Positions 12,824-61,863 of a stretch of DNA of 64,000 nucleotides are shown in pieces. Location: positions 100,078-164,077 of the forward strand of contig CAZVPF010000002.1 in the NCBI GenBank assembly GCA_964628195.1, read 5' to 3'. Numbering within the stretch: position 1 is the stretch's first letter; each line of letters begins with the position of its first letter. The notes beneath the pieces are model-generated. The model was not told the origin of the DNA and made no database searches. It saw nothing but the letters and a program-made list of their open reading frames with translations. The position numbers were made by a program, and so were the translations under genes. Origin of the DNA: an uncultured Pirellulales bacterium. Lineage in GTDB: Bacteria > Planctomycetota > Phycisphaerae > Sedimentisphaerales > Anaerohalosphaeraceae.

Positions 12824-14242
12824 ATGTTTGACGCAATGGATTTTAACGGATGGGACGAAGCAGAAGAAAAGGCAATGGCAGCCTATGAGCTCTATGAACA
12901 GGGCGAAATGGCACCTGCACTTGCCTATCTTGAGCAGGCTATACAAATTAACCCCGATAATAGCGCATGGCACTTCAATGCGGGACTCACACTTGATGCC
13001 CTTAACAGGTTTGAGGACGCCATAGAGTCTTATAAAAAGGCTCTGGTCCATACTCCTGACGATCCTGAAATTCTAAATTCTCTTGCCGTTGATTATACAC
13101 GTATAGGAATGTACGACCTGGCCCTTGATACTTTCGAGAATGTAGAAAAACTTTATCCAGATTTCGAGCCATGCTACTGCAACCGTATAATTACCTATAC
13201 CGAGCTTGAAAAGCATGATAAAGCCGAGGAAATGTTCTACCTGGCCCAGCAGATTAACCCGGACTGCCCGATATGCTTCTATAATATAGGTAATTCGCTT
13301 TTTTCACGGCAGCAATACGATAAGGCAATATGGTGCTGGCAAAAAACCTCCATCCTGGAGCCAACACATCCACAAATTAATTACAGAATAGCCCAGGCCC
13401 ACTGGGCAAACGGAAATTCAGAAAAGGCAAGAACGCATTTTTTGAACGAGCTAAGACAAAATCCGGGCGATACTGATGTGATACTTGATTATGGGATGTT
13501 CCTCCTCGAAAGCGGTGAAACTGACCAGGCCAAAGAGAAGTTTAACCGCATTCTTGAACTCAATCCTGAATCTGCAACAGCCTGTTTTTATCTGGCTGAA
13601 CTTGCCCTTAATGAAGGGGACACCGCTTGCAGCGAGAGACTTTACAGGGAGGCGATATCAAAAAATTTCAATCTGCCCGGCCCAAGATACAGGCTCGGAG
13701 AGATTGCTTATAAAAAGGGTAACCCGGAAAAAGCCATCGAATACCTCAAGTCCGAGTGCGAGCTTAATGTTGAAAACCCGGATGTCCTGCTCGCCATGGG
13801 CTCGCTTTTCCTCGAAATGGGAGAGAATGACTTTTCCACGGACTGCTTCTTGAGGGTTGTAGATGCCAATCCGCGAAACAGTGAAGCTTTTTATCATATA
13901 GGCACATCACTCGCAAGAAAAGGCGACCGGCAGGGGGCACTTCAGTTCTTTGAGCATGTTCTTTCACTTGATCCGCAAAACGCAAGGGCCTTAAAGGATG
14001 TGGCATGTCTTTATTATGACGAAAAACAGTTCGTTCTCGCCGCGAAAATGGTAAAGGACGCGATAAAAGCCAAACCCGAAGACGTCGAACTCAAAAAGCT
14101 CCTCAAGGCGATAAAGCTTAAGAGGCTTGCGAAGAAGATGCAAAACCTCGTCTATTCCATCCCGTTTTATAAATGCCGTTTGAGTTACGAAAAGCAGCGA
14201 TGCAGGGTCCTAAAGGCCATGAACAAGGCCAAAGACAAATAG
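12824..14242 (+). CDS. tetratricopeptide (TPR) repeat protein
   Basis: 472 aa with repeated 34-aa A..Y.kAl.l.P.n patterns throughout, for example AIESYKKALVHTPDDPE and ALQFFEHVLSLDPQNARA. Confidence 0.85.
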   Translation: MFDAMDFNGWDEAEEKAMAAYELYEQGEMAPALAYLEQAIQINPDNSAWHFNAGLTLDALNRFEDAIESYKKALVHTPDDPEILNSLAVDYTRIGMYDLALDTFENVEKLYPDFEPCYCNRIITYTELEKHDKAEEMFYLAQQINPDCPICFYNIGNSLFSRQQYDKAIWCWQKTSILEPTHPQINYRIAQAHWANGNSEKARTHFLNELRQNPGDTDVILDYGMFLLESGETDQAKEKFNRILELNPESATACFYLAELALNEGDTACSERLYREAISKNFNLPGPRYRLGEIAYKKGNPEKAIEYLKSECELNVENPDVLLAMGSLFLEMGENDFSTDCFLRVVDANPRNSEAFYHIGTSLARKGDRQGALQFFEHVLSLDPQNARALKDVACLYYDEKQFVLAAKMVKDAIKAKPEDVELKKLLKAIKLKRLAKKMQNLVYSIPFYKCRLSYEKQRCRVLKAMNKAKDK

Positions 14243-14580
14243 CCGTCGCAACAAAGCCTCTTTGCTCATTAATTCTCTGCTTTACCCTCATTTAATCATG
14301 TTGGCTGTAATCACTCCTGAAAAACGGTGTATTATAGGTCTTTTGTAATTTCTTTACCCATCTAAATTTGCCCACACCAGCCTTGATAAAGCTGATAATT
14401 CAAAAATTGTACTTGATAACAACCATATTATGAGATAAAAAAATGGTACTGACAAAAACCCATTAGGTTGACGGATTCGACAATCAGTGTGCACTGACAG
14501 GGACGGAGTCTAAAAACGGTGTTTCGCATCAAAAATCACCTCTTTATTTCCACCCAAGTTCCATTTTACATGGATAATTT

Positions 14581-15219
14581 GTGGCCTTTGCAGTTAATTT
14601 CAATATTTCGGCAAGATTCGGGTATGTTAGTATTCCAACAGGTATAGCTTTGTTAAGAATAAGATTTTTATTATTATCATTACTGCAGGCACTTACGGTT
14701 TTGTTTGTGATTTCGATCATTTTGTCCGCTTCCAAAGTTGACAATGTCTGGAGGAATTTATGGTCATCCAAATCCGATAAAGTGTTTCTCCGTACAAAGC
14801 ATGGTGACATTGCGGCCCATAGTCTTTTTCTTAAAGATAAACTATTCCAAAGTGTAAATGAAAGTGTTACACTTTTATACCCCGAGCAGGTCAAAGAATT
14901 GAAAACAAGTGGAGTTTTGAACCCCGGGGATTACTTAGGTAAGTTCTGGGCGCCGATACCACAGGTGTATCTTTACCCGGCTTCGGTTGTGCGTAAATAT
15001 TACAATTATAACTTGTCACCTGTTTTAGTAAAACAGTTGCTTAGCCGCGATCATTATGTTGAAAAGTTTAAGGACCGCAATTTTGTTGTGCTTAAAGAAT
15101 CAAATGAAAACCAAGGCGATAAGTGGGCTCTGTTTGTCGGAGCATTGCAGGATGAGCAATACATATTCACTCTCCCTATAGAAAAAGGTCTGGCCCTTAC
15201 TCGGGGTGACAGTAATTGA
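14581..15219 (+). CDS. hypothetical protein with N-terminal membrane anchor (start uncertain)
   Basis: The ORF contains no in-frame ATG; candidate starts are GTG 14581 or TTG 14650, the latter giving LRIRFLLLSLLQALTVLFVISIILSA. I recognised no family motif. It ends 4 nt into the next gene. Confidence 0.35.
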   Translation: MAFAVNFNISARFGYVSIPTGIALLRIRFLLLSLLQALTVLFVISIILSASKVDNVWRNLWSSKSDKVFLRTKHGDIAAHSLFLKDKLFQSVNESVTLLYPEQVKELKTSGVLNPGDYLGKFWAPIPQVYLYPASVVRKYYNYNLSPVLVKQLLSRDHYVEKFKDRNFVVLKESNENQGDKWALFVGALQDEQYIFTLPIEKGLALTRGDSN

Positions 15220-16772
15220 TTAAGGCACAAATATTATTAAATACAGCCATGCTTTTATACGGCAGCATTTTAGCAATGGCATATTCGGATAAATTCAGCT
15301 TTATGCTTATGCCGACAATATCATGGCTGAGTTCGTGGCTGGTACTGACATGTGCATATATTTTCCTCTCGATAACGGGATTGATAATTAGCCCGATTTT
15401 AGTCGTTGCCTTCCTTGTCGCAGCAGCAGCGTTATTTATTATAGTATCACGCCACAGATTGATTGCCAATCTGAAAGCCACTTTCGGCGACAGGGACAGG
15501 CTTAAAAGGCTTGTTATTTTATATTTTGTATGTTTGTTATTCATTTTTTTGATAACAATTAAGCTGCATTATGTTTTCGCAACACCAGACTCCCTTCAGT
15601 ATAATGCTTTCTCGAAAATCTTTCATTACTACGCACATTTTGAACGGGGCAATTCAAGAGTTTTTGTTTTTGCTCACAGCGTGCGTCTGCCTTTTATTTC
15701 TGCTGTTCAAAATTTTGCTTATTTACTTGGGATTGGTGCATATACTTCATTTTTTCCGGTGACATCTTTCTTTGTCATAATATTGGTCTTGTTTTTCCTG
15801 TTTGACAAAATCAGTATACGGGAAAAACCCGCCGCCGGGCTCACGTGGTTTTCCATATCAGCCCTTTTATTGCTCTTCAATCGAAACTATCTTCTTCACA
15901 GTTTTTACTATCACAGTAATTTGACCGTAGCGGCTTACTTTTCAGCAGGAGTTTTTCTTTCACTTCTTTATCTTCGCCGCGAAGAGCCGATTTATTTTTT
16001 TTTCTCTTCCGGCCTTCTTGCCTCGACCGTACTTATCCGCAAAGAAATGCTTATTTTCTCCTTGATACCGATTTTCCTCACATTGTATTTTTTCAAACCA
16101 TATCGAGCTAAAATACGTTTCTCGGCTTTAGCATTATTCCTTGTGATTGGTTATCCGTGGTTTTTATGGGGTATTTTTAAGTTGCTTGAGTGGGGAAGTT
16201 TTTCATTCAAGAATTTTTCTTCAGGGCATGGCTCATTCTATCTGCCTATATTGACTTTAGCCTGCACCTTTGCTGCTTTTTTACTGCCTGTTCCAAAGTT
16301 TTTTCGCAAGAACAGTATCAAACTATCTCTTGTTTCATCTGCACTTTTTTTTCTCATATTGTATTTTCTAAATGGTTCGAGATTAATCGGTTCATTGCGG
16401 GATTTGCTTTCACTTGCCCTTGCCGGCAAAGGCAGATGGCAGCTTTTCTGGTATTGCTTCACTTTTGCGACAGCCATATATATATTAATTATTTATTTAA
16501 AAAGCAAACCCAAAGCGTCACTTTTAGAACATGAGTACAAACCTCTATGCGGACTGAAGTTTGTATTGTCGGTAATCATTGTCTTTTTTGCTTTAAGAAT
16601 TGTTTTGTATTCGATTTTCACTGCCCCAAAAGCAAATGCTTATCTTGCCAGCGGAAACAGAATACTTCTGCATATTTTTCCAATCGCAGTATATTTTTGT
16701 GGATGCGTTGGGTATTCATTTTCATTAATCGCCTCCCGTTTGAGCAAACAGCAAATATTACAATCAAACTGA
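15216..16772 (+). CDS. polytopic membrane protein, GT-C-like (ArnT/PMT/GtrC-like) putative glycosyltransferase
   Basis: 518 aa with 12 or more predicted TM helices and no soluble domain. It lies immediately upstream of a GtrB/ArnC-like GT2. The start is TTG 15216 or ATG 15249. The call rests on topology and context, not a strong motif. Confidence 0.45.
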   Translation: MIKAQILLNTAMLLYGSILAMAYSDKFSFMLMPTISWLSSWLVLTCAYIFLSITGLIISPILVVAFLVAAAALFIIVSRHRLIANLKATFGDRDRLKRLVILYFVCLLFIFLITIKLHYVFATPDSLQYNAFSKIFHYYAHFERGNSRVFVFAHSVRLPFISAVQNFAYLLGIGAYTSFFPVTSFFVIILVLFFLFDKISIREKPAAGLTWFSISALLLLFNRNYLLHSFYYHSNLTVAAYFSAGVFLSLLYLRREEPIYFFFSSGLLASTVLIRKEMLIFSLIPIFLTLYFFKPYRAKIRFSALALFLVIGYPWFLWGIFKLLEWGSFSFKNFSSGHGSFYLPILTLACTFAAFLLPVPKFFRKNSIKLSLVSSALFFLILYFLNGSRLIGSLRDLLSLALAGKGRWQLFWYCFTFATAIYILIIYLKSKPKASLLEHEYKPLCGLKFVLSVIIVFFALRIVLYSIFTAPKANAYLASGNRILLHIFPIAVYFCGCVGYSFSLIASRLSKQQILQSN

Positions 16773-16785
16773 ACGGAAGATTATC

Positions 16786-17658
16786 TTGTCAAAAGCAACC
16801 ATAATAATACCGGCATATAACGAAGAGCATGGAATTGAGCGGACTATTGGGCGGCTTAATGAGCTGCTGAAAAAATCCAGCCACGAGTTCGAGGTAATCT
16901 TTGTCGATGACGGCTCCACAGACGAAACATATAAAAAACTTAAGGAGAGTGATTTCAAGTTCTTCAGGGTTATTCGTCACAAGGTCAACGCGGGCTACGG
17001 AGCCGCATTGAAAACCGGGGTCCAGGCTGCGGCTAATGAGATAATTGTCATAACCGACGCCGACGGCACCTATCCCGTTCAAAAGATCCCGGAACTTATC
17101 GACATTATGGTCGACCAGGAGCACGACATGGTCGTGGGCTCAAGGGAAGGACGAAAGCTTGAGTTTAACCCTGCCCGTGTTTTTGCAAAATATTTCCTGC
17201 ACTTACTTGCCAACTACCTGACCAGCCGTAAGATTCCCGACATAAACTCCGGGCTTAGAGTGATGAACAAAAAAGTTGTGGAACGTTTCATAAACATTCT
17301 CCCGGAAGGTTTTTCCTTCACTACGACTATTACCCTGGCAATGCTTTCGAATTCATACTCGGTGAAGTACGTACCCATCAATTATAAGTTCCGCAGGGGC
17401 AAATCAAAAATAAACCCCTTTGCCGACACCCTGAATTTCTTCGCTCTCGTGGTCAGGACGGTGATGTATTTTAATCCGCTCAAAATCTTCCTGCCGCTGA
17501 GCTTTTTCTTTCTGCTGCTCGGCTTTGCGGTGCTTGTCATGAGTTACATGTTTGCTGAAAAAATTATGGATGTCACCTGTGGAATAATTCTTATGACTTC
17601 GGTCCTGATTCTTTCCATAGGTATGCTGGCTGACTTAATAGATAAGAGGATGAAATAA
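16786..17658 (+). CDS. GT2 polyprenyl-phosphate glycosyltransferase (GtrB/ArnC/DPM1-like)
   Basis: N-terminal IIIPAYNEE...VIFVDDGSTDET...TDADG motifs plus two C-terminal TM helices, which is the GtrB/ArnC architecture. TTG start. Confidence 0.85.
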   Translation: MSKATIIIPAYNEEHGIERTIGRLNELLKKSSHEFEVIFVDDGSTDETYKKLKESDFKFFRVIRHKVNAGYGAALKTGVQAAANEIIVITDADGTYPVQKIPELIDIMVDQEHDMVVGSREGRKLEFNPARVFAKYFLHLLANYLTSRKIPDINSGLRVMNKKVVERFINILPEGFSFTTTITLAMLSNSYSVKYVPINYKFRRGKSKINPFADTLNFFALVVRTVMYFNPLKIFLPLSFFFLLLGFAVLVMSYMFAEKIMDVTCGIILMTSVLILSIGMLADLIDKRMK

Positions 17659-52829: not shown

Positions 52830-52855
52830 ATAATATAACGTGTACGATATATTAT
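52830..52855 (+). promoter_or_regulatory. 26-nt near-perfect palindrome overlapping a TATAAT box; candidate MarR operator
   Basis: ATAATATAACGTGTACGATATATTAT matches its own reverse complement at 22 of 26 positions, with perfect outer 8-bp arms. TATAAT lies at 52853-52858, and the marR ATG at 52874 follows an AAGGTGA ribosome-binding site. Confidence 0.4.
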
Positions 52856-52873: not shown

Positions 52874-53431
52874 ATGAAAGGATCAACGCCTACAAGTGCT
52901 GTGTTCGTCGCTTTAAGACGGATAATAAGGGCAATCGATTTGCGGTCCAGGTTTCTGGTCAACAAATTCGGCATTACGGGTCCGCAAATAGCTATTATGA
53001 ACGAGCTGTCAGCTCACGGCGGAATATCAATTTGCGACCTGAAAAGAAAAGTCCACCTCAGCCAGGCAACTGTAACCGGCATAATCGACAGGCTCGAAAA
53101 GAAGGGCTTTGTCGAGAGACGCCAATGTAGCAAGGATAAAAGACGCGTCGAAATATGGCTTACAGAACAGGGCACCGAGGTCTTAAACGAGGCTCCGCCG
53201 CTGCTTCAGGAAGAGTTTACGGAGCAGTTTCTGCGGCTCGAAGACTGGGAACAGACCCAGATATTGTCTTCCCTGCAGCGGGTCGTTTCAATGATGGAAG
53301 CACGCGACATCGAAGCAACCCCTATGCTCGCTACCGGCCCGATCTCGGCGACATTTGAAAATACAAAAGAATTTCTTCAAGAAAACTCTAACAATAACCT
53401 TAAAGGAGTATCCACAAACAATGTCAATTAA
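52874..53431 (+). CDS. MarR-family transcriptional regulator
   Basis: Winged-helix region ITGPQIAIMNELSAHGGISICDLKRKVHLSQATVTGIIDRLEKKGFVERR..DKRRV. Confidence 0.85.
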   Translation: MKGSTPTSAVFVALRRIIRAIDLRSRFLVNKFGITGPQIAIMNELSAHGGISICDLKRKVHLSQATVTGIIDRLEKKGFVERRQCSKDKRRVEIWLTEQGTEVLNEAPPLLQEEFTEQFLRLEDWEQTQILSSLQRVVSMMEARDIEATPMLATGPISATFENTKEFLQENSNNNLKGVSTNNVN

Positions 53432-54890
53432 AACAGCATCAGTTAATGAAAAAGTGGGTTTTCAGTCGTCTCTTTATCAGCCGTTAGACGAAACTGCCCT
53501 GCAAAAAACAGCGGCTTCAGCTTTCGAGGTCCTCGAAAAATCCGGCGTCGCCGTTTATTCCGATACCGCTTTTGAGGCCTTTAAAAAAGCCGGGGCAATT
53601 GTCGATACCCGGACAAGAACAGTCAAGCTGCCCAAAAGCCTGGTTGAAGATTCGATCGACTCTAACCCTTCTTCAATTACATTGTATTCAAGGGACAGAA
53701 AGACAGATATTCATCTTGAAAAAAACAGGGTCCACTACGGAACAGGCGGAACCGCAATATATGTTATTGACCCCGACACCAGACAGCGAAGGCAGTCTAC
53801 AAACAAAGATGTCGCTCTTAATGCCCGCCTGGTTGAAGACCTTGAAAATATCCATTTATTTACTATCAATGTCTTCCCCAATGACATACAGGATAATAAC
53901 TCGATAGACATAAATCGCTTTTTCCATGCCCTTGACAATACCCAGAAACATATAATGGGCGGAATATACTCGCTTCAGGGCTGTAAACAGGTCATCGAAA
54001 TGGCCGAGATGATCGCAGGTGGAGAGGAAGCCCTCAGGAAAGAACCCTTTGTCTCGTTTATCACCCTGCTTATAAGTCCCTTCAAGATCGACGACCACTA
54101 CGGCGAAATGACATGCCACATTGCCGAGAAAGGGTTGCCCGTTGTTGTGCCCACTGAGCCTATCTGCGGAACGACCTCGCCGATAACCCTTGCAGGAAAC
54201 GTCCTTACCCACATCGCTGAAACACTTGCAGGCATTGCTCTTGTTCAATGTGTCAACAAAGGCGCGCCCGGTATATGTGGAAGCGTAGGTTCAATTACCG
54301 ACCTTAGAACAATGAACCACCTCGGCGGAGCAATAGAACGGGCAATGATCAACTCAGCCGTCGCCCAGCTTGCACAGCATTTCAGTATTCCATTGTACTC
54401 CACCGCAGGAACCACCGATTCCAAGAACCTGGATATGCAAAGCGCCTATGAAAGCGGAATGTCAAACCTGCTTGTCGCGATGTCGGGCGCCAACTACATC
54501 CACGACTCAGCAGGTCTGATGGAATCCGATCTCACCGTTTCCTACGAAAAACTTGTAGTCGATAATGAAATTCTCGGCATGTGCCAGAGAGTCCTAAAGG
54601 GCATAGAGGTAAACGACGAAACCCTCGGCCTTGACATGATGGTAAACAAGGGCCCTGCAAAGGATTACCTTGCAGAAGAGCATACAATTAAATATATGCA
54701 CGACGAATTCTTCATGCCCGACCTTGCCAACAGGGACAAGCGTGAAGGCTGCGGCGAAAAAGACGACGCTCTCGGAAGGGCAAAACAGTTCGTTGACCGG
54801 GTAAGATCCGCCGCACCCCAGGGCTGCATTGACAGCGGCATAAGGGAAAAAATATTGAAAAAGTTTGCCAATATTCAAAAAGCCGACTGA
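53421..54890 (+). CDS. MttB-superfamily (trimethylamine methyltransferase family, non-pyrrolysine) methyltransferase, paralog 1
   Basis: About 490 aa with MttB-like similarity over its full length (..YGTGGTAIYV.., ..ISPFKIDDHYGE.., ..VVVPTEPICGTTSPITLAG..) and no in-frame stop. ATG 53421 is preceded by AAAGGAG. Confidence 0.8.
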   Translation: MSIKTASVNEKVGFQSSLYQPLDETALQKTAASAFEVLEKSGVAVYSDTAFEAFKKAGAIVDTRTRTVKLPKSLVEDSIDSNPSSITLYSRDRKTDIHLEKNRVHYGTGGTAIYVIDPDTRQRRQSTNKDVALNARLVEDLENIHLFTINVFPNDIQDNNSIDINRFFHALDNTQKHIMGGIYSLQGCKQVIEMAEMIAGGEEALRKEPFVSFITLLISPFKIDDHYGEMTCHIAEKGLPVVVPTEPICGTTSPITLAGNVLTHIAETLAGIALVQCVNKGAPGICGSVGSITDLRTMNHLGGAIERAMINSAVAQLAQHFSIPLYSTAGTTDSKNLDMQSAYESGMSNLLVAMSGANYIHDSAGLMESDLTVSYEKLVVDNEILGMCQRVLKGIEVNDETLGLDMMVNKGPAKDYLAEEHTIKYMHDEFFMPDLANRDKREGCGEKDDALGRAKQFVDRVRSAAPQGCIDSGIREKILKKFANIQKAD

Positions 54891-54936
54891 CACAACTTTT
54901 CCCAAAACGAACCTGAAAACTAAAACGGAGAACAAA

Positions 54937-56436
54937 ATGAGTTTGACAATAACTGAAGACAAAACCAACCAGAGACAGGGTATGCTCGTAAAACCCCAAT
55001 GCAGGCTTTCCGACGGGCAGGTAGCCGCCATAGATGAAACTTCGCGAAAACTTCTCGTAGACCCCGGCCTTTTGTGCTATAACAAACGTGCCGCCGAAAT
55101 ATTCAAACAAGCCGGCGCCGAAGTAACACCCGAAGCAGAATACGTCCATGTAAAATTAACCGACGAATTGATCGACAAGGCGCTCGCTTCGGCACCCTCG
55201 ACGGTCGTGCTCGGAGGCAGGGGCGAAGAAAACCGCCTTATACTCGACGCCGACGAACCGCGGGTAAGATTCGGCAGCGGCTCGGAAACCAACGTCTGGC
55301 TCGACGTGAACTTCGACACCGGCAAAGCGGTATTCGACCGTCAGCCCGGTTCGATAGAAAAACTCAAGAAAGCGGCCCATCTTTGCGACAACCTTGAACA
55401 TCTCGACTTCTTCATCCGCTGCGTAAACATCCAGGACCAGGGCGTTACCGCCGAAAACAAGGACGTCAACAAGTTCCTCGCCAGCCTCAACAACATAACT
55501 CGCCACGTTCAGGCCGGCCTTACCGACATCAACGCGCTCGATGACCTTGTAACGCTCGGTAAAATAATCGCAGGCGGCCCGGAAAGTTTCACCGCAGCCC
55601 CGCCGATATCGTTCATAACATGCGTAATAAAAAGCCCGCTCCAGGTCGTGGACGACACCGCCGAGAAACTTATCGAAATAAGCAAACGCGGCCTGCCCGT
55701 GGTTATTTCAAGCTGTCCGATGGGCGGGGCGACCGGACCCTTCGACGAGTTCGGCATGGTCGCGCTAATAAACGCAGAGCTGCTCGCCGGCGTCATCCTG
55801 ACCCAGCTGGTCAACCCCGGCACACCAGTAATCTACGGCGCTGTGCCCGTAAGAACCCGCCTCGACAACCTGAACGACATGTACGGAGCCCCGGAGTTCG
55901 TTCACTACAACGTTGACTGCGCACAGATGGCACGACATTACCACCTACCTTGCTACTCAACTTCAGGTGTCGCCGACACCAGCACCCCGGGCATACAGTC
56001 AACCGTCGAAAAGCTTATGACTTACTTAACAGTGCCCCGCGCTGGCGCACAATACATTCACTACGCATTCGGACTGCTCGAAAGAACAAATGTCTTCTGT
56101 CCCGAACAGGCCATAATGGACAACGCTCACATCGGCATCGCCAAGCGAATAATGGCAGAGCCCGACATTGACGAAAACAGCAGTGAGAATCTCATCAACA
56201 TGGTTAAAGACGTCATGGACTCCGACCACAAAACGTTCATATACAACCTGCCCATACCAACACGCGACGACGTTTACACATATTATCCGCTCGAGGACAA
56301 GGAAAACGGGGCGCTGTTCGCGGCACATAAAAAATACAAAGAACTGCTCGACCAGCCGCGAAACACACTTGACGACTCGACACTCGAAGAGATAAAGAAT
56401 AACGTCCCCAACATACTGGATGATACTGTTAAATAA
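54937..56436 (+). CDS. MttB-superfamily (non-pyrrolysine) methyltransferase, paralog 2
   Basis: About 500 aa, with blocks collinear to paralog 1 (..FGSGSETNVWL.., ..IKSPLQVVDDTAE.., ..VVISSCPMGGATGPFDEFG..) and no in-frame stop. ATG 54937 is preceded by ACGGAG. Confidence 0.8.
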   Translation: MSLTITEDKTNQRQGMLVKPQCRLSDGQVAAIDETSRKLLVDPGLLCYNKRAAEIFKQAGAEVTPEAEYVHVKLTDELIDKALASAPSTVVLGGRGEENRLILDADEPRVRFGSGSETNVWLDVNFDTGKAVFDRQPGSIEKLKKAAHLCDNLEHLDFFIRCVNIQDQGVTAENKDVNKFLASLNNITRHVQAGLTDINALDDLVTLGKIIAGGPESFTAAPPISFITCVIKSPLQVVDDTAEKLIEISKRGLPVVISSCPMGGATGPFDEFGMVALINAELLAGVILTQLVNPGTPVIYGAVPVRTRLDNLNDMYGAPEFVHYNVDCAQMARHYHLPCYSTSGVADTSTPGIQSTVEKLMTYLTVPRAGAQYIHYAFGLLERTNVFCPEQAIMDNAHIGIAKRIMAEPDIDENSSENLINMVKDVMDSDHKTFIYNLPIPTRDDVYTYYPLEDKENGALFAAHKKYKELLDQPRNTLDDSTLEEIKNNVPNILDDTVK

Positions 56437-56455: not shown

Positions 56456-57748
56456 ATGTCAGAACAACTATCGAATGACAAAACACAGCAGGCCTACGCC
56501 GAAGCCGTCAGCAGCGGACTCTATGCAAAAAAAAGCGGCCTGATCGGAAAATACGATAACGTCCGTAAGTACTGGGAAGACGAAATAACCCGTCACCATA
56601 TTTACCCGAACCTGAAAAAACTCATCCAGCGATGCCAGACAGAACCGCGCAGGCTTCGTATTATGGACCTCGGATGCGGAAGTGCCGACGGCCTTGAAAT
56701 GCTCATGGGCATCCGGGACCGCGATGCCGACCTGAGACAGGACGAAGTAGAGCTGCTCGGCTCCGACCTTCTGGGCCATTACAAAGGCGTGGATATAAGC
56801 GATGAACTTCTCGCCCAGGGCAGCGGTATATACGGCCACAACCCCAAGATAACCTTCCAGAACGCCGACTTCACAAAGGGACTGCCCCTCGAAAAAGACG
56901 AAGACCCCTACGACCTTTACTTCACCTCGTACGGTTCCTCGTCGCATCATAACAACCTCAAGACGCTCGTCAAGCTCCTCGCCGATATCGCCAAACGTAC
57001 GAAAGCATACTCGATCATCGTTTGCGACTGGCTTGGCAGGTATTCATACGAATGGCAGAGCCTCTGGACAAACGACCTCTCAAAAAACTGCAACATGGAT
57101 TACGTTGTTTCATATATATACGACAAGGAAGAACGCGAGCAGAAACGCGACGAACTCCAGCATATCCGCCTTAGGTTGATGTGCAGGCAGGAAGCCGAGA
57201 ATGTCATAAAAAAAGCAAGCGAAGAAGCCGGTATCAAAATTAACCCCGTAGACTTCTTCGACCGCTCAATCTTCACCGGCAGGCACATGGACACCGGGGA
57301 GTACAACATCCACGCCCAGCCGATCCGTTATGCGGTTAACTCCCTGCACGAACCCAACACGCGAACCGACCTTGGAACACTGATACTTGACTATGTTCCC
57401 AAAAAAGGCTTTGACACGCTGAACAAACATTTCGACTACCTCCAGTGCTGCTGGAACGCCCTCGTTCGTTACACAGAATCGCTTATCCATGCTTATGACG
57501 AAAAGCAGGGACGCTTCACTTCGGACCTGCCGCAAATTTCCGGTTCATACCCCCAGCACCTGCGTATCATGCTCGAACGAATGAAAATGGTCGTCGAAGG
57601 TGTCGGCTGGCTCAAGACAGGCCTGCCCCGTGAAAACATAATCGAACCGCAGCTCGCTTATTCGCTGCGTTACCTGATTATCAACCTCCAGCAGGGCCTC
57701 GGTTGCGCACACGGTTTCGGCGCGGTGCTCGAAGTGGACAAAACCTGA
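56456..57748 (+). CDS. class I SAM-dependent methyltransferase with large uncharacterised C-terminal region
   Basis: Motif I RIMDLGCGSADGLEML, then YKGVDISDELL and YDLYFTSYGSSSHH. I recognised no motif in residues ~230-430. Confidence 0.7.
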   Translation: MSEQLSNDKTQQAYAEAVSSGLYAKKSGLIGKYDNVRKYWEDEITRHHIYPNLKKLIQRCQTEPRRLRIMDLGCGSADGLEMLMGIRDRDADLRQDEVELLGSDLLGHYKGVDISDELLAQGSGIYGHNPKITFQNADFTKGLPLEKDEDPYDLYFTSYGSSSHHNNLKTLVKLLADIAKRTKAYSIIVCDWLGRYSYEWQSLWTNDLSKNCNMDYVVSYIYDKEEREQKRDELQHIRLRLMCRQEAENVIKKASEEAGIKINPVDFFDRSIFTGRHMDTGEYNIHAQPIRYAVNSLHEPNTRTDLGTLILDYVPKKGFDTLNKHFDYLQCCWNALVRYTESLIHAYDEKQGRFTSDLPQISGSYPQHLRIMLERMKMVVEGVGWLKTGLPRENIIEPQLAYSLRYLIINLQQGLGCAHGFGAVLEVDKT

Positions 57749-57757
57749 CCGGTCAAA

Positions 57758-58714
57758 ATGATTAAGTTTGAGAACGTTTCAAAAAAGTTCCCCGGCGGCG
57801 TTACCGCTGTCGACGACCTCACCCTCGAAGTCAAACAGGGCGAAACCCTCGTTCTGCTCGGAACAAGCGGAAGCGGAAAAACCACCACCATGAAAATGGT
57901 CAACCGCCTTATAGAGCCTACTTCCGGCACTATCCTGATCGACGGAAGCGACATAATGTCTCAAAACGTTATCGAACTGCGAAGGAGCATCGGCTATGCT
58001 ATCCAGCACATAGGCCTGTTCCCGCACATGACCGTCGCCGAGAACATCGCCGTTGTGCCCGCCTTGTTAAGCTGGACCGACAGCAAAATTTCACAAACAA
58101 TAGACGAGCTTCTCAACATGGTCGGTCTCGAACCAGAAAGTTTCCGCGACCGTTTCCCCACACAGCTCAGCGGCGGACAGAAACAGCGGATCGGCGTCGC
58201 CCGCGCACTCGCTGCCGACCCGCCCATCGTGCTGATGGACGAACCGTTCGGAGCCCTGGACCCGATAACCCGCGAGCAGCTTCAGGATGAATTTCTCGAA
58301 CTCGAATCCGAAATAAAAAAGACCATTATTTTCGTAACGCACGACATATTCGAAGCCGTCAAAATGGGCGACCGTGTCGCGCTGCTCGACGAAGGCAAAA
58401 TCCAGCAGCTTGACGAACCGGCCAAACTGGTCGACAACCCCGCAAACGAATTTGTCGAAAACTTCCTCGGACAAAGCAGGTTCCAGCTTTACCTGATGAC
58501 AAAAAGCATCCGGCCGATAGTAACTTCTTCAGATAGGCAAATGGTGCACGAAAAGAACACAAATCACCTTCACATAAAAAACAATTACATTCAGGCTCTT
58601 GATATGTTCAAACGCTCTTCAACTGAACAGCTTGCTGTTTTTGACGGACAGAAATTCGCCGGACTGCTTGAAAAGAAAAAACTGTTCGCCGCAATGTCGG
58701 AGATAATCAGCTAA
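57758..58714 (+). CDS. ABC transporter ATP-binding protein, OpuCA/ProV-like (quaternary-amine uptake type)
   Basis: Walker A GTSGSGKTT, signature LSGGQKQR, Walker B IVLMDEPFGALD and a short C-terminal CBS-like tail. Confidence 0.85.
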   Translation: MIKFENVSKKFPGGVTAVDDLTLEVKQGETLVLLGTSGSGKTTTMKMVNRLIEPTSGTILIDGSDIMSQNVIELRRSIGYAIQHIGLFPHMTVAENIAVVPALLSWTDSKISQTIDELLNMVGLEPESFRDRFPTQLSGGQKQRIGVARALAADPPIVLMDEPFGALDPITREQLQDEFLELESEIKKTIIFVTHDIFEAVKMGDRVALLDEGKIQQLDEPAKLVDNPANEFVENFLGQSRFQLYLMTKSIRPIVTSSDRQMVHEKNTNHLHIKNNYIQALDMFKRSSTEQLAVFDGQKFAGLLEKKKLFAAMSEIIS

Positions 58715-58726
58715 AAGAAAAAGAAA

Positions 58727-59386
58727 ATGGAACCTTTAAAAACATTTTACGAAAAACTCGGACCGGAAATATTCGCCAGGGCAAACGAACACTTATACCT
58801 CGTCTTCCTGTCGATAACCGCCGCTATTGCGATTGCTCTGCCACTCGGCATCTGTCTCGCCAAAAGCAGGTTCAAAACTTTCGTCTCGGTCGTCATGGGC
58901 TTTGCCGGCGTCATCCAGACCATCCCGAGCCTCGCACTTATCTCTTTCATCGTCGTAATATTCGCACTCGTCGCACTTCCAACTATCGGCGTTGTTCCCG
59001 CAATAGTCGCCCTTGTTCTCTACGCCTTGCTGCCGATTCTCCGCAACACCTACACCGGCATCAGGCAGGTTGACCCCTCCGTCATAGAAGTCGCCCGCGG
59101 AATGGGAATGAAATCCCGTCAGATACTCATGCAGATCGAACTTCCCCTTTCGCTTCCATTCATAATGGCCGGCATCCGCATCGCCGCCGTATGGACAATC
59201 GGCGTGGCGACCCTGTGCGGCCTTATCGGGGCAGGCGGGCTCGGCGACCTGATCATCAAAGGCCTGAGAAGCATCCAGCTTGACTATCTCCTCGCAGGAA
59301 CTATCCCAGCTGCGCTGCTTGCAGTCGCTTTCGACTGGCTGCTCTCAATGATTGAAAAATGGCTCACACCGGAAGGATTGAAATAA
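58727..59386 (+). CDS. ABC transporter permease, OpuCB/OpuBB-like
   Basis: 219 aa with 5-6 TM helices and an EAA-like loop, IEVARGMGMKSRQILMQIELPLSLP. Confidence 0.85.
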   Translation: MEPLKTFYEKLGPEIFARANEHLYLVFLSITAAIAIALPLGICLAKSRFKTFVSVVMGFAGVIQTIPSLALISFIVVIFALVALPTIGVVPAIVALVLYALLPILRNTYTGIRQVDPSVIEVARGMGMKSRQILMQIELPLSLPFIMAGIRIAAVWTIGVATLCGLIGAGGLGDLIIKGLRSIQLDYLLAGTIPAALLAVAFDWLLSMIEKWLTPEGLK

Positions 59387-59392
59387 CCGACC

Positions 59393-60346
59393 ATGAAAAG
59401 GATCAAGACAAAACACAAGGTTATGATAATCCTCACCGCTGTGGTCCTTATCTGCGCCGCCCTCATAACCTCGAGGATAGAAACAAAAACCAGCCGTCTA
59501 ACCGTCGCTTTCGGCGCCGAGTTCCTCACCAGGCCCGACGGCTACCAGGGCCTTGCAGAACATTACAACTTCCGCTTCGCCTCCGAACCTAAACAGATGA
59601 TGGACGGGCTTTTATACAAGGCCCTTGCAACCGGCTCCATAGATGTTATTAACGCCTTCTCAACCGACGGGCGAATACCGGCATATGATCTCGTCTGCCT
59701 CAAAGACGACAAGAACTTCTTCCCGCCATATTACGCAGCTCCTCTCGTAAGGCAAAGCACACTCGAAAAATATCCTGAGATCGAACAGGCCCTCAACCTG
59801 CTCGCCGGAAAGATAAACAACAAAACAATGCAGCAGCTTAACTTCCACGCCGACGAAAAAGGCATAAAGGCAAAGGACATCGCCGCCGATTTCCTTACCA
59901 AAAACGGGCTGGTTGACTCCGCTAATAAAAACTCAAGCACAACCGACGGCAGCATAACAGTCGCAAGCAAGGAATTCACCGAACAGGAAATACTCGGCGA
60001 GATACTCGTCCAGTTGCTCCGGGCAAAAACAGGCCTTGAGGTAAAAAAGAAGCTCAACCTCGGCGGTACTATTATATGCTTTAACGCACTCAAGGCAGGC
60101 GACATAGACCTCTACCCCGAATACACCGGCACCGGTCTTGTCAACATACTCAAAAAAGATGTTGTCAGCGACCCCGACAGCGTAATGAAAATAGTAAAAC
60201 AGCAATTCAAAAAGAAATACGAGCTGGTATGGCTCGAACCTTTCGGCTTCAACAACACCTACACGCTTACAATGCGAAACCGAACCGCCGAAAGACTCGA
60301 ACTCCAAACCATATCCGACCTCGCTGACTATGTTAATAATAAGTAA
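59393..60346 (+). CDS. glycine betaine/choline/carnitine-type (OpuCC/YehZ-like) substrate-binding protein, apparently circularly permuted
   Basis: Family hallmarks are present: STDGRIPAYDLVCLKDDKNFFPPYYAAPLVR and SKEFTEQEILGEILVQLL...GDIDLYPEYTGTG. Their order is swapped relative to what I recall for the family. An N-terminal TM/signal anchor is present. Confidence 0.8.
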   Translation: MKRIKTKHKVMIILTAVVLICAALITSRIETKTSRLTVAFGAEFLTRPDGYQGLAEHYNFRFASEPKQMMDGLLYKALATGSIDVINAFSTDGRIPAYDLVCLKDDKNFFPPYYAAPLVRQSTLEKYPEIEQALNLLAGKINNKTMQQLNFHADEKGIKAKDIAADFLTKNGLVDSANKNSSTTDGSITVASKEFTEQEILGEILVQLLRAKTGLEVKKKLNLGGTIICFNALKAGDIDLYPEYTGTGLVNILKKDVVSDPDSVMKIVKQQFKKKYELVWLEPFGFNNTYTLTMRNRTAERLELQTISDLADYVNNK

Positions 60347-60363: not shown

Positions 60364-61863
60364 ATGTGCGGTATCGCGGGAATCTGGGGAAAACAAAACG
60401 AAGATATAGTCAAGGAAATGATGAGCAGAATGGTCCACCGCGGCCCCGACGCCAAAGGCATGTTCACCAGCCGGCACGGCTGTCTCGGCCACCGAAGGCT
60501 CTCGATCATGGACCCCACGGGCGGCGACCAGCCGATATACTCAGCAGACAACAGCCGCGCCATCATCGCAAACGGCGAAATATACAACTACCCGACCCTT
60601 CGCGAGGACCTCAAGAACAAGCACAAGTTCAAAACATCCAACGACAGCGAATCGGCCCTGCATCTTTACGACGACCTCGCCCACAATGCCGCCGAGCAGC
60701 TTGACGGAATGTTCGCTTTCGCAATATCCGACGGCGAAAACATCTATGCCGCCAGAGACGCTATAGGCATAAAACCCCTCTACTACGGAAAAAAAGACGG
60801 GGCGCTTATATTCGCCTCGGAGCTCAAAGCCCTCAGCGGCCTGGCAGAGGATGTAAAAGAATTCCCCCCCGGCACATGGTATCACTCGAAGCTCGGCTTC
60901 AACTCTTTCTACGTCGTCCCGCGCCACCAGCAGGGAAAATACAGCATCGAAGAAAGCTGCAAAATGATCCGCCAGAAACTCGAAAACGCCGTTCTCAAAC
61001 GTCTCATGAGTGACGTCCCCGTAGGTGCCTTCCTTTCAGGCGGTCTCGACAGCAGCCTCATCTGCGCACTTGCCCGCCGCCACTTAAAAGAGCTGCACAC
61101 ATTCTCCGTTGGCGTCGAAGGAAGTCGCGACATCCAAGCCGCCCGAATGGTCTCCAGGCACATCGACTCGATACACCATGAATACCTTTTCACCCAGCAG
61201 GAAGTAATAGACAAGCTGCCCGAAATAGTCTACTGGCTCGAATCATTCGACCAGGACCTCGTGCGAAGCGGAATACCATGCTATTTCACATCCCGCCTGG
61301 CTTCGCAGCACGTTAAAGTCATCCTCACAGGCGAAGGCGCAGACGAGCTGTTCGCCGGCTACACCTATTACAAGGACATCGACGACAATGACGACCTGCA
61401 CGACGAGCTCCGAAGAAGTGTCTGCTCACTGCATAATATCAACCTCCAGCGCGTGGACCGCCTGACAATGGCTCACTCAATCGAAGGTCGCGTCCCGTTC
61501 CTCGACACCGACCTGATAGACCTCGCCCAGAAGATACCCGCCGAATACAAACTCTACGACGACGGCAGCGGCGAGCCGGTCGAAAAGTGGATACTCAGAA
61601 AGGCATGCGACGACCTGCTCCCCCATGAAATAGTATGGCGCGACAAGGAACAGTTCGACGAAGGAAGCGGAACAGTTGATTTTATCTCACAAGGCGTTAA
61701 AGAAATAATCAAACAGAAAGAAGCCGCCGGTTATATAAAAGACAACAACGACAAAAATCTTCGCTCCACGGAAGAAGCCGCCTATTACAAACTTCTCGAT
61801 GAAGCATATTCCGGCTCCCAGGTCGTTCTCGGCAATGTCGCCCGCTGGGCCGACCGTCCCTGA
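60364..61863 (+). CDS. asnB: asparagine synthase (glutamine-hydrolysing)
   Basis: MCGIAGIWG N-terminal nucleophile, canonical PP-loop AFLSGGLDSS, and a 499-aa length. Confidence 0.9.
   Translation: MCGIAGIWGKQNEDIVKEMMSRMVHRGPDAKGMFTSRHGCLGHRRLSIMDPTGGDQPIYSADNSRAIIANGEIYNYPTLREDLKNKHKFKTSNDSESALHLYDDLAHNAAEQLDGMFAFAISDGENIYAARDAIGIKPLYYGKKDGALIFASELKALSGLAEDVKEFPPGTWYHSKLGFNSFYVVPRHQQGKYSIEESCKMIRQKLENAVLKRLMSDVPVGAFLSGGLDSSLICALARRHLKELHTFSVGVEGSRDIQAARMVSRHIDSIHHEYLFTQQEVIDKLPEIVYWLESFDQDLVRSGIPCYFTSRLASQHVKVILTGEGADELFAGYTYYKDIDDNDDLHDELRRSVCSLHNINLQRVDRLTMAHSIEGRVPFLDTDLIDLAQKIPAEYKLYDDGSGEPVEKWILRKACDDLLPHEIVWRDKEQFDEGSGTVDFISQGVKEIIKQKEAAGYIKDNNDKNLRSTEEAAYYKLLDEAYSGSQVVLGNVARWADRP

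What the first reader, a model, noticed from the sequence alone, without database searches (positions are those of the whole stretch)
53421..56436. Tandem non-pyrrolysine MttB-family methyltransferases with no corrinoid protein, coupled to a quaternary-amine importer
Two collinear MttB-superfamily paralogs (about 490 and 500 aa) contain no in-frame UAG or other stop. They follow a MarR gene and precede an OpuC-type ABC uptake system.

The characterised non-Pyl members are MtgB (glycine betaine), MtcB (carnitine), MtpB (proline betaine) and MtyB (gamma-butyrobetaine). Each hands a methyl group to a cognate corrinoid protein that is usually encoded alongside, together with a methyl-corrinoid:THF or CoM methyltransferase and a reductive activase.

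None of those partners is present in the operon. The only cobalamin-binding domain in the window is the unrelated rSAM at 17696.

So there are two readings. The partners may be encoded elsewhere, with the two paralogs targeting two different imported quaternary amines. Or these MttB proteins work by a different, undescribed mechanism.
Basis: partly seen in the sequence, partly recalled or inferred. Interest (0 to 1): 0.6.

Follow-up and report, generated by a model that had tools for sequence, protein, structure and literature searches.

The report
Paired MttB methyltransferases using unlinked B12 partners
The two MttB-type genes are real, and their missing vitamin-B12 partner proteins are encoded elsewhere in the genome; the open question is what this widespread, undescribed cassette (two MttB proteins plus a SAM methyltransferase) acts on, because neither MttB has the substrate pocket of the known betaine enzymes.

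Summary

The "no corrinoid partner" puzzle has an ordinary answer. The genome encodes an MtgC-type corrinoid protein, a RamA activase and an MtgA-like methyl-THF methyltransferase, all unlinked. The MtgA-like gene lies beside MTHFR, with FolD and Fhs on the same contig.

More distant versions of the same cassette carry these partner genes inside the cluster. In a 401-genome Planctomycetota sample, RamA occurs in 21 of 21 genomes with the SAM-methyltransferase homologue, against 146 of 401 overall. Eubacterium limosum and Ruegeria are published precedents for unlinked partners. A corrinoid-free mechanism is therefore unlikely.

What is unusual is the cassette itself:
- MttB1, MttB2 and the SAM methyltransferase travel and co-evolve together across at least seven phyla.
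- Both MttBs fall outside the MtgB and Pyl-MttB branches.
- Both replace the carboxylate-binding Arg312 with Tyr, and MttB1 adds two conserved Asp residues.

The substrate is probably a cationic, non-carboxylate methylated amine. Its identity and the direction of methyl flow are unresolved.

The parts
52830..52855 (.). Near-perfect inverted repeat just upstream of marR; candidate MarR operator
   Evidence: arms 52830-52841 and 52844-52855, 12 nt each, 92% complementary. Function not tested.
52874..53431 (+). MarR-family regulator, first gene of the operon
   Evidence: PF01047, E 1.5e-18. Its stop overlaps the MttB1 start by 11 nt. MarR homologues (33-55% identity) flank the cassette in L023, L031, L037, L048, L056 and L057.
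53421..54890 (+). MttB1: non-Pyl MttB-superfamily methyltransferase, 489 aa
   Evidence: PF06253, E 6e-95. No internal stop. More than 2000 homologues, the best 120 at 68-84% identity. Pocket differs from MtgB: Y326, D362 and D370 in place of R312, H348 and F356.
54937..56436 (+). MttB2: divergent non-Pyl MttB-superfamily paralog, 499 aa, about 30% identical to MttB1
   Evidence: PF06253, E 2e-54. No internal stop. AF2 model (pLDDT 84) matches full-length MttB 7xcl at TM 0.84 and MtgB 9yce at TM 0.82. Pocket residues Y/Y/T, and V at the Pyl position, are invariant in 26 of 26 orthologues.
56456..57748 (+). 430-aa class I SAM-methyltransferase-like protein with a unique C-terminal helical domain; constant third member of the cassette
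   Evidence: Weak PF13649 hit. About 1900 homologues, the best 120 at 62-98% identity, across many phyla. AF2 model pLDDT 88; only generic small-molecule methyltransferase folds match. SAM-binding motifs are invariant. All 14 homologues at 39% identity or more in the phylum sample share a contig with MttB genes, within about 8 kb.
57758..58714 (+). ABC transporter ATPase
   Evidence: PF00005, E 1.6e-36. Conserved in cassettes.
58727..59386 (+). ABC transporter permease
   Evidence: PF00528, E 5e-28.
59393..60346 (+). OpuBC/OpuCC-type (PF04069) substrate-binding protein, circularly permuted
   Evidence: PF04069, E 7.6e-68. Best PDB relatives are the OpuBC-derived sensor scaffolds, OpuCC and EgtUC. 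Query residues 184-312 align to target 15-147, and 41-174 to target 157-289.
60364..61863 (+). Canonical glutamine-dependent asparagine synthase B, last gene of the operon
   Evidence: NF006949 scores 574.7 bits against a cut-off of 499. N-terminus is MCGI. Orthologues at 55-67% identity sit beside the cassette in Spirochaetota and Planctomycetota loci.

Best explanation
The two genes are the paired substrate-side methyltransferases (MT1 components) of a conserved cassette: MttB1, MttB2 and a 430-aa SAM methyltransferase. The cassette appears to have spread by horizontal transfer.

This genome carries the streamlined version of the cassette. It has no corrinoid genes of its own and uses a resident, unlinked corrinoid system:
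- a 214-aa MtgC-type corrinoid protein (contig C71:9082-9726);
- a RamA-type reductive activase (C53:13464-15263);
- an MtgA-like methyl-THF:corrinoid methyltransferase (C30:13511-14464). It lies next to an MTHFR fusion, with FolD and formate-THF ligase on the same contig.

The chemistry is therefore the known MttB-superfamily chemistry: methyl exchange between an amine held in the TIM barrel and the Co(I)/methyl-Co(III) of a corrinoid protein, and then with tetrahydrofolate.

The most likely role (inferred) is this. The OpuBC-type ABC system imports a methylated amine under MarR control. MttB1 and MttB2 remove methyl groups from it, either in two successive steps or as one complex. The methyl groups leave as methyl-THF, which is oxidised to formate or used for methionine synthesis.

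The substrate is not one of the known carboxylate betaines. Both proteins have Tyr where MtgB has the carboxylate-binding Arg312, and MttB1 has two conserved Asp residues in the pocket. This points to a cationic, non-carboxylate amine of the choline, methylamine or amide type.

Shown: the gene content, the presence of partners in the genome, in-cluster partners in sister cassettes, the co-occurrence figures and the pocket differences.

Inferred: the pairing with the C71 protein, the direction of methyl flow, the substrate, and the roles of the SAM methyltransferase and AsnB.
For: Partners in the genome:
- The C71 protein carries GDLHDIGKN...SALLTTT...IIGGAP. Its best NCBIfam hits are MtgC at 202 bits and TIGR02370 at 197 bits.
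- RamA has Fer2, Raco_middle and RACo_C_ter domains.
- The MtgA-like protein and the MTHFR+DUF5981 fusion are on C30. Fhs and FolD lie on the same contig, and there is no CdhC/ACS.

Sister cassettes with partner genes in the cluster:
- L047 (Desulfobacteraceae) reads Met_synt_B12 protein, MttB1, MtgA, MttB2, corrinoid protein, SAM-MT, AsnB-like. L048 (Desulfobacterales) has the same order, though no corrinoid ORF was called there.
- L056 reads MttB2, corrinoid, SAM-MT, corrinoid, RamA, MetH-activation protein, MttB1.
- L057 and L058 are similar.
- The C71 protein is 46-49% identical to cluster-encoded corrinoid proteins.

Co-occurrence in 401 Planctomycetota genomes:
- SAM-MT homologue in 21; RamA in 146 overall but in 21 of those 21.
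- A small TIGR02370 protein occurs in 14 of 15 cassette genomes. It is unlinked in the streamlined ones, as here.

Precedents for unlinked, shared partners: E. limosum (PMC8604678) and Ruegeria pomeroyi (PMC12478193).

Fold: MttB2 matches MttB, the MttB-MttC complex and MtgB at TM 0.82-0.84.

Pocket (PMC13080624):
- R312 to Y in 69 of 69 MttB1 and 26 of 26 MttB2 sequences.
- H348 to D in 66 of 69 and F356 to D in 62 of 69 MttB1 sequences.
Against: - No experiment or expression data exist; only DNA runs from microbial mats hold the locus.
- Pairing of the MttBs with the C71 protein is inferred. That protein probably also serves a split methionine synthase and some of the 51 URO-D-family genes.
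- A simple demethylation pathway gives no role to the SAM methyltransferase that is always present. It also gives none to the recurrent AsnB, Cys-less AsnB-like, GCS2 and ProA-like genes, which look anabolic.
- Ignavibacteriales and Bacteroidetes loci have the SAM-MT with the importer, GCS2 and ProA-like genes but no MttB nearby.
- The two-plus-one count matches the three methyl groups of a trimethylammonium head, which favours the biosynthetic rival.
Confidence: 0.6

Rival explanations
1. Biosynthetic, SAM-sparing reading. The two MttB proteins run in the methylating direction. They pass methyl groups from methyl-THF through the corrinoid protein onto a primary and then a secondary amine. The SAM methyltransferase adds the last, energetically costly methyl to make a quaternary osmolyte. 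AsnB, the Cys-less AsnB-like protein, GCS2 and ProA-like enzymes build or amidate the carbon skeleton. The ABC system salvages the solute.
For: - Two MttBs plus one SAM-MT is constant and equals three methyl groups.
- ATP-dependent ligases and a SAM enzyme are anabolic in character. AsnB or a Cys-less AsnB-like gene sits beside most cassettes. This genome has the Cys-less type (MAGIAG) at C15:39019-40500, 58-62% identical to cassette-linked ones and next to AhcY.
- Ignavibacteriales loci have the SAM-MT, importer, GCS2 and ProA-like genes without MttB, as if the MttB pair were an optional add-on.
- The acidic MttB1 pocket would suit protonated primary or secondary amines.
- Sources are microbial mats and soda-lake sediments.
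Against: - No MttB-superfamily member is known to work as an N-methylase. Every characterised one demethylates its substrate (PMC8604678, PMC13080624).
- An importer and a MarR regulator in the operon fit catabolism at least as well.
- The host has a methyl-THF oxidation branch.
- No product is known.
- Earlier notes of this scan propose the same idea, but they are not independent evidence.
Confidence: 0.25
2. One reading: two independent catabolic MT1 enzymes, each specific for a different imported quaternary amine of the known kind (glycine betaine, carnitine, proline betaine, gamma-butyrobetaine). They share unlinked partners.
For: E. limosum uses several MttB paralogs with one MtqC/MtqA/RamQ set. 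The binding protein belongs to the promiscuous OpuBC/OpuCC/EgtUC group.
Against: - The two clades occur together, and their trees mirror each other: complete-cassette versions are basal in both.
- Arg312 is conserved in MtgB, MtcB, MtpB, MthB and MtyB according to PMC13080624. It is Tyr in every member of both clades.
- MtgB is at most 35% identical to any member and sits on a separate long branch.
Confidence: 0.07
3. One reading: a corrinoid-independent, undescribed mechanism. For example, direct methyl transfer to THF, or transfer to the SAM-methyltransferase-like protein.
For: No corrinoid gene lies in the operon. The streamlined clade, with its many hundreds of homologues, shows the same lack in the loci examined. 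The SAM-MT has an unassigned C-terminal domain.
Against: - 21 of 21 genomes have RamA, and 14 of 15 have a small corrinoid protein.
- Sister cassettes have these genes in the cluster.
- MttB2 superposes on MttB from the MttB-MttC complex.
- Complete cassettes carry the SAM-MT together with a corrinoid protein. L056 has all three of corrinoid, RamA and MetH-activation protein, L047 two of them and L048 and L058 the activation protein. So the SAM-MT does not replace them.
Confidence: 0.05

Closest known systems
MtgB-MtgC-MtgA (+RamA) glycine betaine:THF methyltransferase system of Desulfitobacterium hafniense (PDB 2qne, 9yce)
   Same: Non-Pyl MttB-superfamily TIM-barrel MT1; MtgC-type corrinoid protein with DxHxxG; pterin-binding MT2; RamA-type activase. 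All four kinds of gene are present in this genome.
   Different: - Sequence match to MtgB is weak (phmmer 211 bits for MttB1 and 119-120 for MttB2), and MtgB is at most 35% identical to any cassette member.
- The glycine-betaine contacts Y97, R312, H348 and F356 are replaced.
- There are two co-evolving MT1s instead of one.
- A SAM methyltransferase is always present.
- The partners are unlinked here.
Eubacterium limosum MtpB/MtcB/MtyB/MthB with shared MtqC, MtqA and RamQ
   Same: MT1 genes, the corrinoid protein and MT2/activase are encoded in separate clusters. MT2 sits with methyl-THF oxidation genes (PMC8604678). Here the MtgA-like gene sits beside MTHFR, with FolD and Fhs on the same contig.
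   Different: - Those MT1s keep Arg312 and act on carboxylate betaines or choline (PMC13080624). Here it is Tyr.
- The host lacks acetyl-CoA synthase.
- No SAM-MT partner is reported there.
Ruegeria pomeroyi MtgB with MtgC/MtgD/MtgE: glycine betaine demethylation sharing a split methionine synthase (PMC12478193)
   Same: MttB-family genes are unlinked from a single corrinoid protein and pterin methyltransferase that also serve methionine synthesis, with RamA. This genome has a stand-alone homocysteine-binding protein (C11, 297 aa) and no multidomain MetH.
   Different: Ruegeria is an aerobic alphaproteobacterium, and its MtgC is phylogenetically distinct according to the paper. The substrate there is glycine betaine. 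DUF1638 was not looked for here. A shared role of the C71 protein is inferred only.
Pyrrolysine-containing trimethylamine methyltransferase MttB-MttC (Methanosarcina barkeri, PDB 7xcl/7xcn)
   Same: Best structural match of MttB2 (TM 0.84). Both paralogs share the Tyr of the PSYVAGSO motif at the Arg312 position.
   Different: There is no UAG/Pyl: Thr (MttB1) or Val (MttB2) occupies that position. TIGR02369 scores are 409 and 242 bits against a cut-off of 525.

Membership tests
MttB superfamily (PF06253), non-pyrrolysine branch | PF06253 domain above the gathering score | tested here: met
   318.6 and 184.8 bits against a cut-off of 25.
MttB superfamily (PF06253), non-pyrrolysine branch | MttB/MtgB-type TIM-barrel fold over the full length | tested here: met
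   The MttB2 AF2 model matches 7xcl at TM 0.84 and 9yce at TM 0.82 over about 490 columns. MttB1 was tested by sequence alignment only, residues 14-443 against 2qne.
MttB superfamily (PF06253), non-pyrrolysine branch | No in-frame UAG at the pyrrolysine position | tested here: met
   There are no stops. Thr331 (MttB1) and Val (MttB2) align with Pyl334.
MttB superfamily (PF06253), non-pyrrolysine branch | Cognate corrinoid protein (DxHxxG), MT2 and ATP-dependent activase available in the genome | tested here: met
   C71 214-aa protein, C30 MtgA-like protein and C53 RamA. Physical pairing cannot be tested with these tools.
MttB superfamily (PF06253), non-pyrrolysine branch | Methylation of Co(I) corrinoid by the substrate | not testable with these tools
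   This needs an anoxic UV-visible assay.
MtgB (glycine betaine-specific) | Glycine-betaine contacts Y97, R312, H348 and F356 (PMC13080624) | tested here: not met
   MttB1 has T or G (depending on the alignment), Y, D, D. MttB2 has S, Y, Y, T. These are conserved across 69 and 26 orthologues.
MtgB (glycine betaine-specific) | Falls inside the MtgB clade | tested here: not met
   MtgB lies outside both cassette clades on a long branch, with at most 35% identity to any member. Only one MtgB sequence was available.
MtcB / MtpB / MtyB / MthB (E. limosum quaternary amine MT1s) | Conserved Arg at the MtgB-312 position (stated in PMC13080624) | tested here: not met
   Tyr in all members of both clades.
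MtcB / MtpB / MtyB / MthB (E. limosum quaternary amine MT1s) | Clade membership on a superfamily tree | not tested
   I could not obtain their sequences with the tools at hand.
Pyl-MttB (TIGR02369) | Score above the equivalog cut-off and a Pyl codon | tested here: not met
   408.7 and 242.1 bits against a cut-off of 525. There is no UAG.
Split methionine synthase / MtgBCDE-type shared hub (Ruegeria) | Separate corrinoid, pterin-binding and homocysteine-binding proteins plus RamA, with no multidomain MetH | tested here: met
   C71, C30, C11 (297-aa S-methyl_trans) and C53. No protein combines the PF02310, PF00809 and PF02574 domains. Whether they function together is not testable here.

The most novel reading that the evidence does not exclude
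The cassette is a cobalamin-plus-SAM N-methylation line. MttB1 and MttB2 run in reverse, using methyl-THF through the shared corrinoid protein to add the first two methyl groups to an amine that lacks a free carboxylate, possibly because it is amidated. The 430-aa SAM methyltransferase adds the third methyl. The product would be a still-unknown quaternary osmolyte of mat and sediment bacteria, made with one SAM instead of three. This would be the first anabolic role for the MttB superfamily.
Probability: 0.25. Interest if true: 0.85.

Novelty: new variant of a known kind. Interest (0 to 1): 0.55.

Why it matters
Non-Pyl MttB genes are routinely annotated in metagenomes as trimethylamine or glycine betaine demethylases and counted in methylated-amine and methane-precursor budgets.

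This cassette is very abundant: about 2000 homologues each for MttB1 and for the SAM methyltransferase. It occurs in at least seven phyla from mats, sediments and soda lakes.

It lacks the substrate-binding residues of every characterised member, and it is tied to a SAM enzyme with no known role. Identifying its substrate and direction would do one of two things. It would add a new methylated nitrogen compound to anaerobic C1 cycling, or it would reveal a cobalamin-dependent route of osmolyte synthesis.

The practical lesson for annotation is that a missing corrinoid gene next to an MttB gene is normal and does not indicate a new mechanism.

Tried and rejected
- Tree with MtcB, MtpB, MtyB and MthB: not possible, because I had no way to fetch those sequences. 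I used the Arg312 criterion from PMC13080624 and the two PDB sequences instead.
- Function of the SAM methyltransferase: the PDB sequence search gave nothing, NCBIfam gave nothing, and Foldseek gave only generic small-molecule methyltransferases at TM about 0.3. A role as a corrinoid reactivator was rejected, because one complete cassette (L056) carries it together with both RamA and a Met_synt_B12 protein, and three others (L047, L048, L058) with a Met_synt_B12 protein.
- Compositional sign of horizontal transfer: none. Operon GC is 51.2% against 49.1% for the genome, and 27% of 9-kb windows are as high. Transfer is inferred only from absence in the 20 listed relatives of the same family, order and class.
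- ProA-like, GCS2 and DUF362 genes of other cassettes: absent from this genome, apart from an ordinary ProA.
- Expression: no RNA runs hold the locus.
- Literature: three full-text searches found no description of the cassette.
- MetH-activation-domain protein: none found in this genome by tblastn.

Full report
**Observation**

The ORF list and translations confirm two collinear, stop-free genes at exactly the stated coordinates. MttB1 is 53421-54890 (489 aa) and MttB2 is 54937-56436 (499 aa).

Both match Pfam MTTB. MttB1 scores E 6e-95. MttB2 scores E 2e-54 and covers only profile positions 33-423. The two are about 30% identical to each other. They are the only MTTB genes in the 3.68-Mb, 97%-complete genome.

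- MarR (52874-53431) overlaps the MttB1 start by 11 nt.
- A 430-aa class I SAM-methyltransferase-like gene (56456-57748) sits between MttB2 and the ABC genes.
- A canonical AsnB with an MCGI N-terminus (60364-61863) ends the operon.
- Gaps between genes are 6-46 nt, followed by 190 nt after AsnB.
- A 12+12-nt inverted repeat lies just upstream of marR.

No corrinoid, MT2 or activase gene is in the operon. The only B12-binding domain in the window belongs to the radical SAM gene near 17.8 kb.

**Where the partners are**

Whole-genome searches found a full set of partners, all unlinked:
- A 214-aa corrinoid protein at C71:9082-9726 carries GDLHDIGKN, SALLTTT and IIGGAP. Its best NCBIfam matches are MtgC (202 bits) and TIGR02370 (197 bits).
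- One RamA-type activase is at C53:13464-15263, with Fer2, Raco_middle and RACo_C_ter domains.
- A 317-aa pterin-binding methyl-THF:corrinoid methyltransferase is at C30:13511-14464. It lies beside an 817-aa MTHFR+DUF5981 protein whose C-terminus is 35% identical to it.

Formate-THF ligase and FolD are on the same contig, and there is no acetyl-CoA synthase. The cell therefore has a route from methyl-THF to formate.

There is also a stand-alone homocysteine-binding protein (C11, 297 aa) and a Hcy-MT+MTHFR fusion, but no multidomain MetH. This recalls the split methionine synthase that Ruegeria shares with its MtgB enzymes (PMC12478193).

The premise that partners are usually encoded alongside is too strong. 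In E. limosum, the MtpB/MtcB/MtyB genes, MtqC and MtqA/RamQ lie in separate clusters, and MtqA/RamQ sit with methyl-THF oxidation genes (PMC8604678).

**The genes belong to a conserved cassette**

MttB1 has more than 2000 homologues, the best 120 at 68-84% identity. The SAM methyltransferase has about 1900, the best 120 at 62-98% identity and with no informative annotation.

I examined the neighbourhoods of 37 loci. The core is MttB1, MttB2 and the SAM methyltransferase. It occurs in Planctomycetota, Lentisphaerota, Spirochaetota (with a different gene order), Rhodothermota, Chloroflexota and Thermodesulfobacteriota.

Other genes commonly join the core: the OpuBC-type ABC importer, MarR, AsnB or a Cys-less AsnB-like gene, and in many loci a ProA-like aldehyde dehydrogenase, a GCS2 ligase and a DUF362/2x[4Fe-4S] protein.

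The more divergent cassettes carry the corrinoid machinery in the cluster:
- L047 (Desulfobacteraceae) has a Met_synt_B12 protein, MttB1, MtgA, MttB2, a corrinoid protein, the SAM-MT and an AsnB-like gene. L048 (Desulfobacterales) has the same order, but no corrinoid ORF was called there.
- L056 (a planctomycete) has MttB2, corrinoid, SAM-MT, corrinoid, RamA, MetH-activation protein and MttB1.
- L057 and L058 are similar.

On a maximum-likelihood tree, these complete versions are basal to the streamlined clade in both the MttB1 and the MttB2 subtrees. The pair therefore co-evolved, and the streamlined form lost its own partner genes.

**Co-occurrence**

I searched an even sample of 401 genomes of the phylum. 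The phylum is Planctomycetota, because two of the sampled loci are identical to named MAG loci.
- The SAM-MT homologue occurs in 21 genomes and in none of the 20 listed relatives of the same family, order or class.
- MTTB occurs in 50 genomes and likewise in none of those relatives.
- RamA occurs in 146 of 401 overall, but in all 21 genomes with the SAM-MT homologue. It also occurs in all six same-family genomes that lack the cassette.

The corrinoid hub therefore looks resident, and the cassette looks like an acquired add-on.

All 14 SAM-MT homologues at 39% identity or more share a contig with MttB genes, within about 8 kb. A small TIGR02370-type corrinoid protein is present in 14 of 15 cassette genomes, and the exception is only 69% complete. 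It is unlinked in the streamlined genomes, as here.

Together with the MttB-like fold of MttB2 (TM 0.84 to MttB, including the MttB-MttC complex entry), this makes a corrinoid-free mechanism unlikely.

**What differs from known enzymes**

The 2026 MtgB study shows that Y97 and F356 hold the trimethylammonium group, and that R312 and H348 hold the carboxylate. It also states that R312 is conserved in MtcB, MtpB, MthB and MtyB (PMC13080624).

By alignment to 9yce, 2qne and 7xcl and across orthologues:

| MtgB position | MttB1 (n = 69) | MttB2 (n = 26) |
|---|---|---|
| R312 | Tyr, 69/69 | Tyr, 26/26 |
| H348 | Asp, 66/69 | Tyr, 26/26 |
| F356 | Asp, 62/69 | Thr, 26/26 |
| Pyl334 (of MttB) | Thr, 57/69 | Val, 26/26 |

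The Tyr at the R312 position is what Pyl-MttB has (PSYVAGSO). MtgB and Pyl-MttB sit outside both clades on long branches, with at most 35% and 38% identity to any member.

The pocket has lost its basic residues, and in MttB1 it has become acidic. This argues for a cationic substrate without a free carboxylate. The binding protein belongs to the OpuBC/OpuCC/EgtUC group and is circularly permuted, which only says that the ligand is of the trimethylammonium type.

**The SAM methyltransferase and the AsnB genes**

The AF2 model of the SAM methyltransferase (pLDDT 88) has a class I fold plus a helical C-terminal domain. Foldseek finds only generic small-molecule methyltransferases, among them GNMT, GSMT, SDMT, PMT and TylM1. 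The SAM motifs and many aromatic and Arg residues are invariant.

This protein does not replace RamA or the MetH-type activator. In L056 all three occur together, and in L047, L048 and L058 it sits beside a MetH-type activation protein.

Following a lead from earlier notes of this scan, I checked the AsnB-like genes. Cassettes carry a canonical MCG type, an MAG type or an MSG/VSG type. This operon has the canonical type. The genome also has the Cys-less MAG type at C15:39019-40500. It is 58-62% identical to cassette-linked copies and lies near AhcY.

Ignavibacteriales and Bacteroidetes loci have the SAM-MT, importer, GCS2 and ProA-like genes but no MttB.

**Interpretation**

I hold the following as well supported, at about 0.6 for the whole statement and higher for corrinoid dependence alone. 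The pair is the MT1 half of a corrinoid-dependent cassette that uses unlinked host partners, and it acts on a substrate unlike the known betaines.

I lean towards demethylation of an imported amine, for four reasons. Every characterised family member demethylates its substrate. The operon has an importer and a MarR regulator. The host has a methyl-THF oxidation branch. The host also carries a very large set of other putative corrinoid methyltransferases (51 URO-D-family hits).

That reading leaves the SAM methyltransferase and the amide ligases without a role. The rival reading gives them one: two cobalamin-dependent methylations plus one SAM-dependent methylation build a quaternary, possibly amidated, osmolyte. 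It also explains the two-plus-one count. I give it about 0.25.

The reading of two independent betaine demethylases gets about 0.07, and a corrinoid-free mechanism about 0.05.

**Novelty**

Three full-text searches found no description of the cassette. Other agents of this scan have met the same cassette in other genomes and reached similar views. I treat those notes as leads, not as support.

The mechanism class is known. The paired MT1s, the constant SAM-MT partner and the non-carboxylate pocket make this a new variant of a known kind.

Noticed in passing
whole genome (for example C30:19606-21813, C47, C8, C6, C68): The URO-D (MtaA/MT-type) family is very large for a 3.7-Mb genome: 51 matches, 49 of them over the Pfam cut-off. 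Only one MtgC-type corrinoid protein and one RamA are present. This suggests one corrinoid hub serving many methyltransferases, perhaps for demethylating methylated sugars.
   Followed up: no
genome contig C30:1863-4564 and 13511-16973: C1 island: formate-THF ligase and FolD; then an 817-aa fusion of MTHFR, DUF5981 and a pterin-binding-like C-terminal domain; next to it a second 317-aa pterin-binding methyltransferase. The genome has no acetyl-CoA synthase.
   Followed up: partly
genome contig C71:5015-9726: The corrinoid protein gene is divergently transcribed from a fused EtfB-EtfA protein (697 aa) and, by my reading of its sequence only, a FixC/FixX-like ETF oxidoreductase (556 aa, not scanned against Pfam). 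This may be an electron outlet for methyl-THF oxidation.
   Followed up: partly
genome contig C15:35909-40500: A Cys-less AsnB-like amide synthetase (N-terminus MAGIAG) is 58-62% identical to copies that sit inside the cassette in other genomes. Here it is unlinked and lies near what I read from the sequence as S-adenosylhomocysteine hydrolase and RtcB (no family search run on those two).
   Followed up: partly
window 59393-60346: The OpuBC/OpuCC-type binding protein is circularly permuted relative to its PDB relatives. Its residues 184-312 align to target 15-147, and residues 41-174 to target 157-289.
   Followed up: partly
window 52830-52855: A 12+12-nt inverted repeat (92% complementary, 2-nt spacer) ends 19 nt before the marR start codon. 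It is a likely operator of the operon.
   Followed up: partly
MttB2 residues 303-317 (window about 55843-55887): The stretch VPVRTRLDNLNDMYG is nearly invariant across MttB2 orthologues, yet the AF2 model gives it pLDDT below 50. It may be a mobile lid or a partner-contact loop.
   Followed up: no
genome contig C70:315-1037: A second small B12-binding-domain protein (240 aa) has an atypical DEHSELG motif. It gives only weak matches to corrinoid proteins and CarH, so it is probably a regulator rather than a methyl carrier.
   Followed up: no
L027:7133-8395 and L032:4131-5363: In some cassettes a DUF362 protein with two [4Fe-4S] motifs sits between MttB1 and MttB2. This genome has none.
   Followed up: partly
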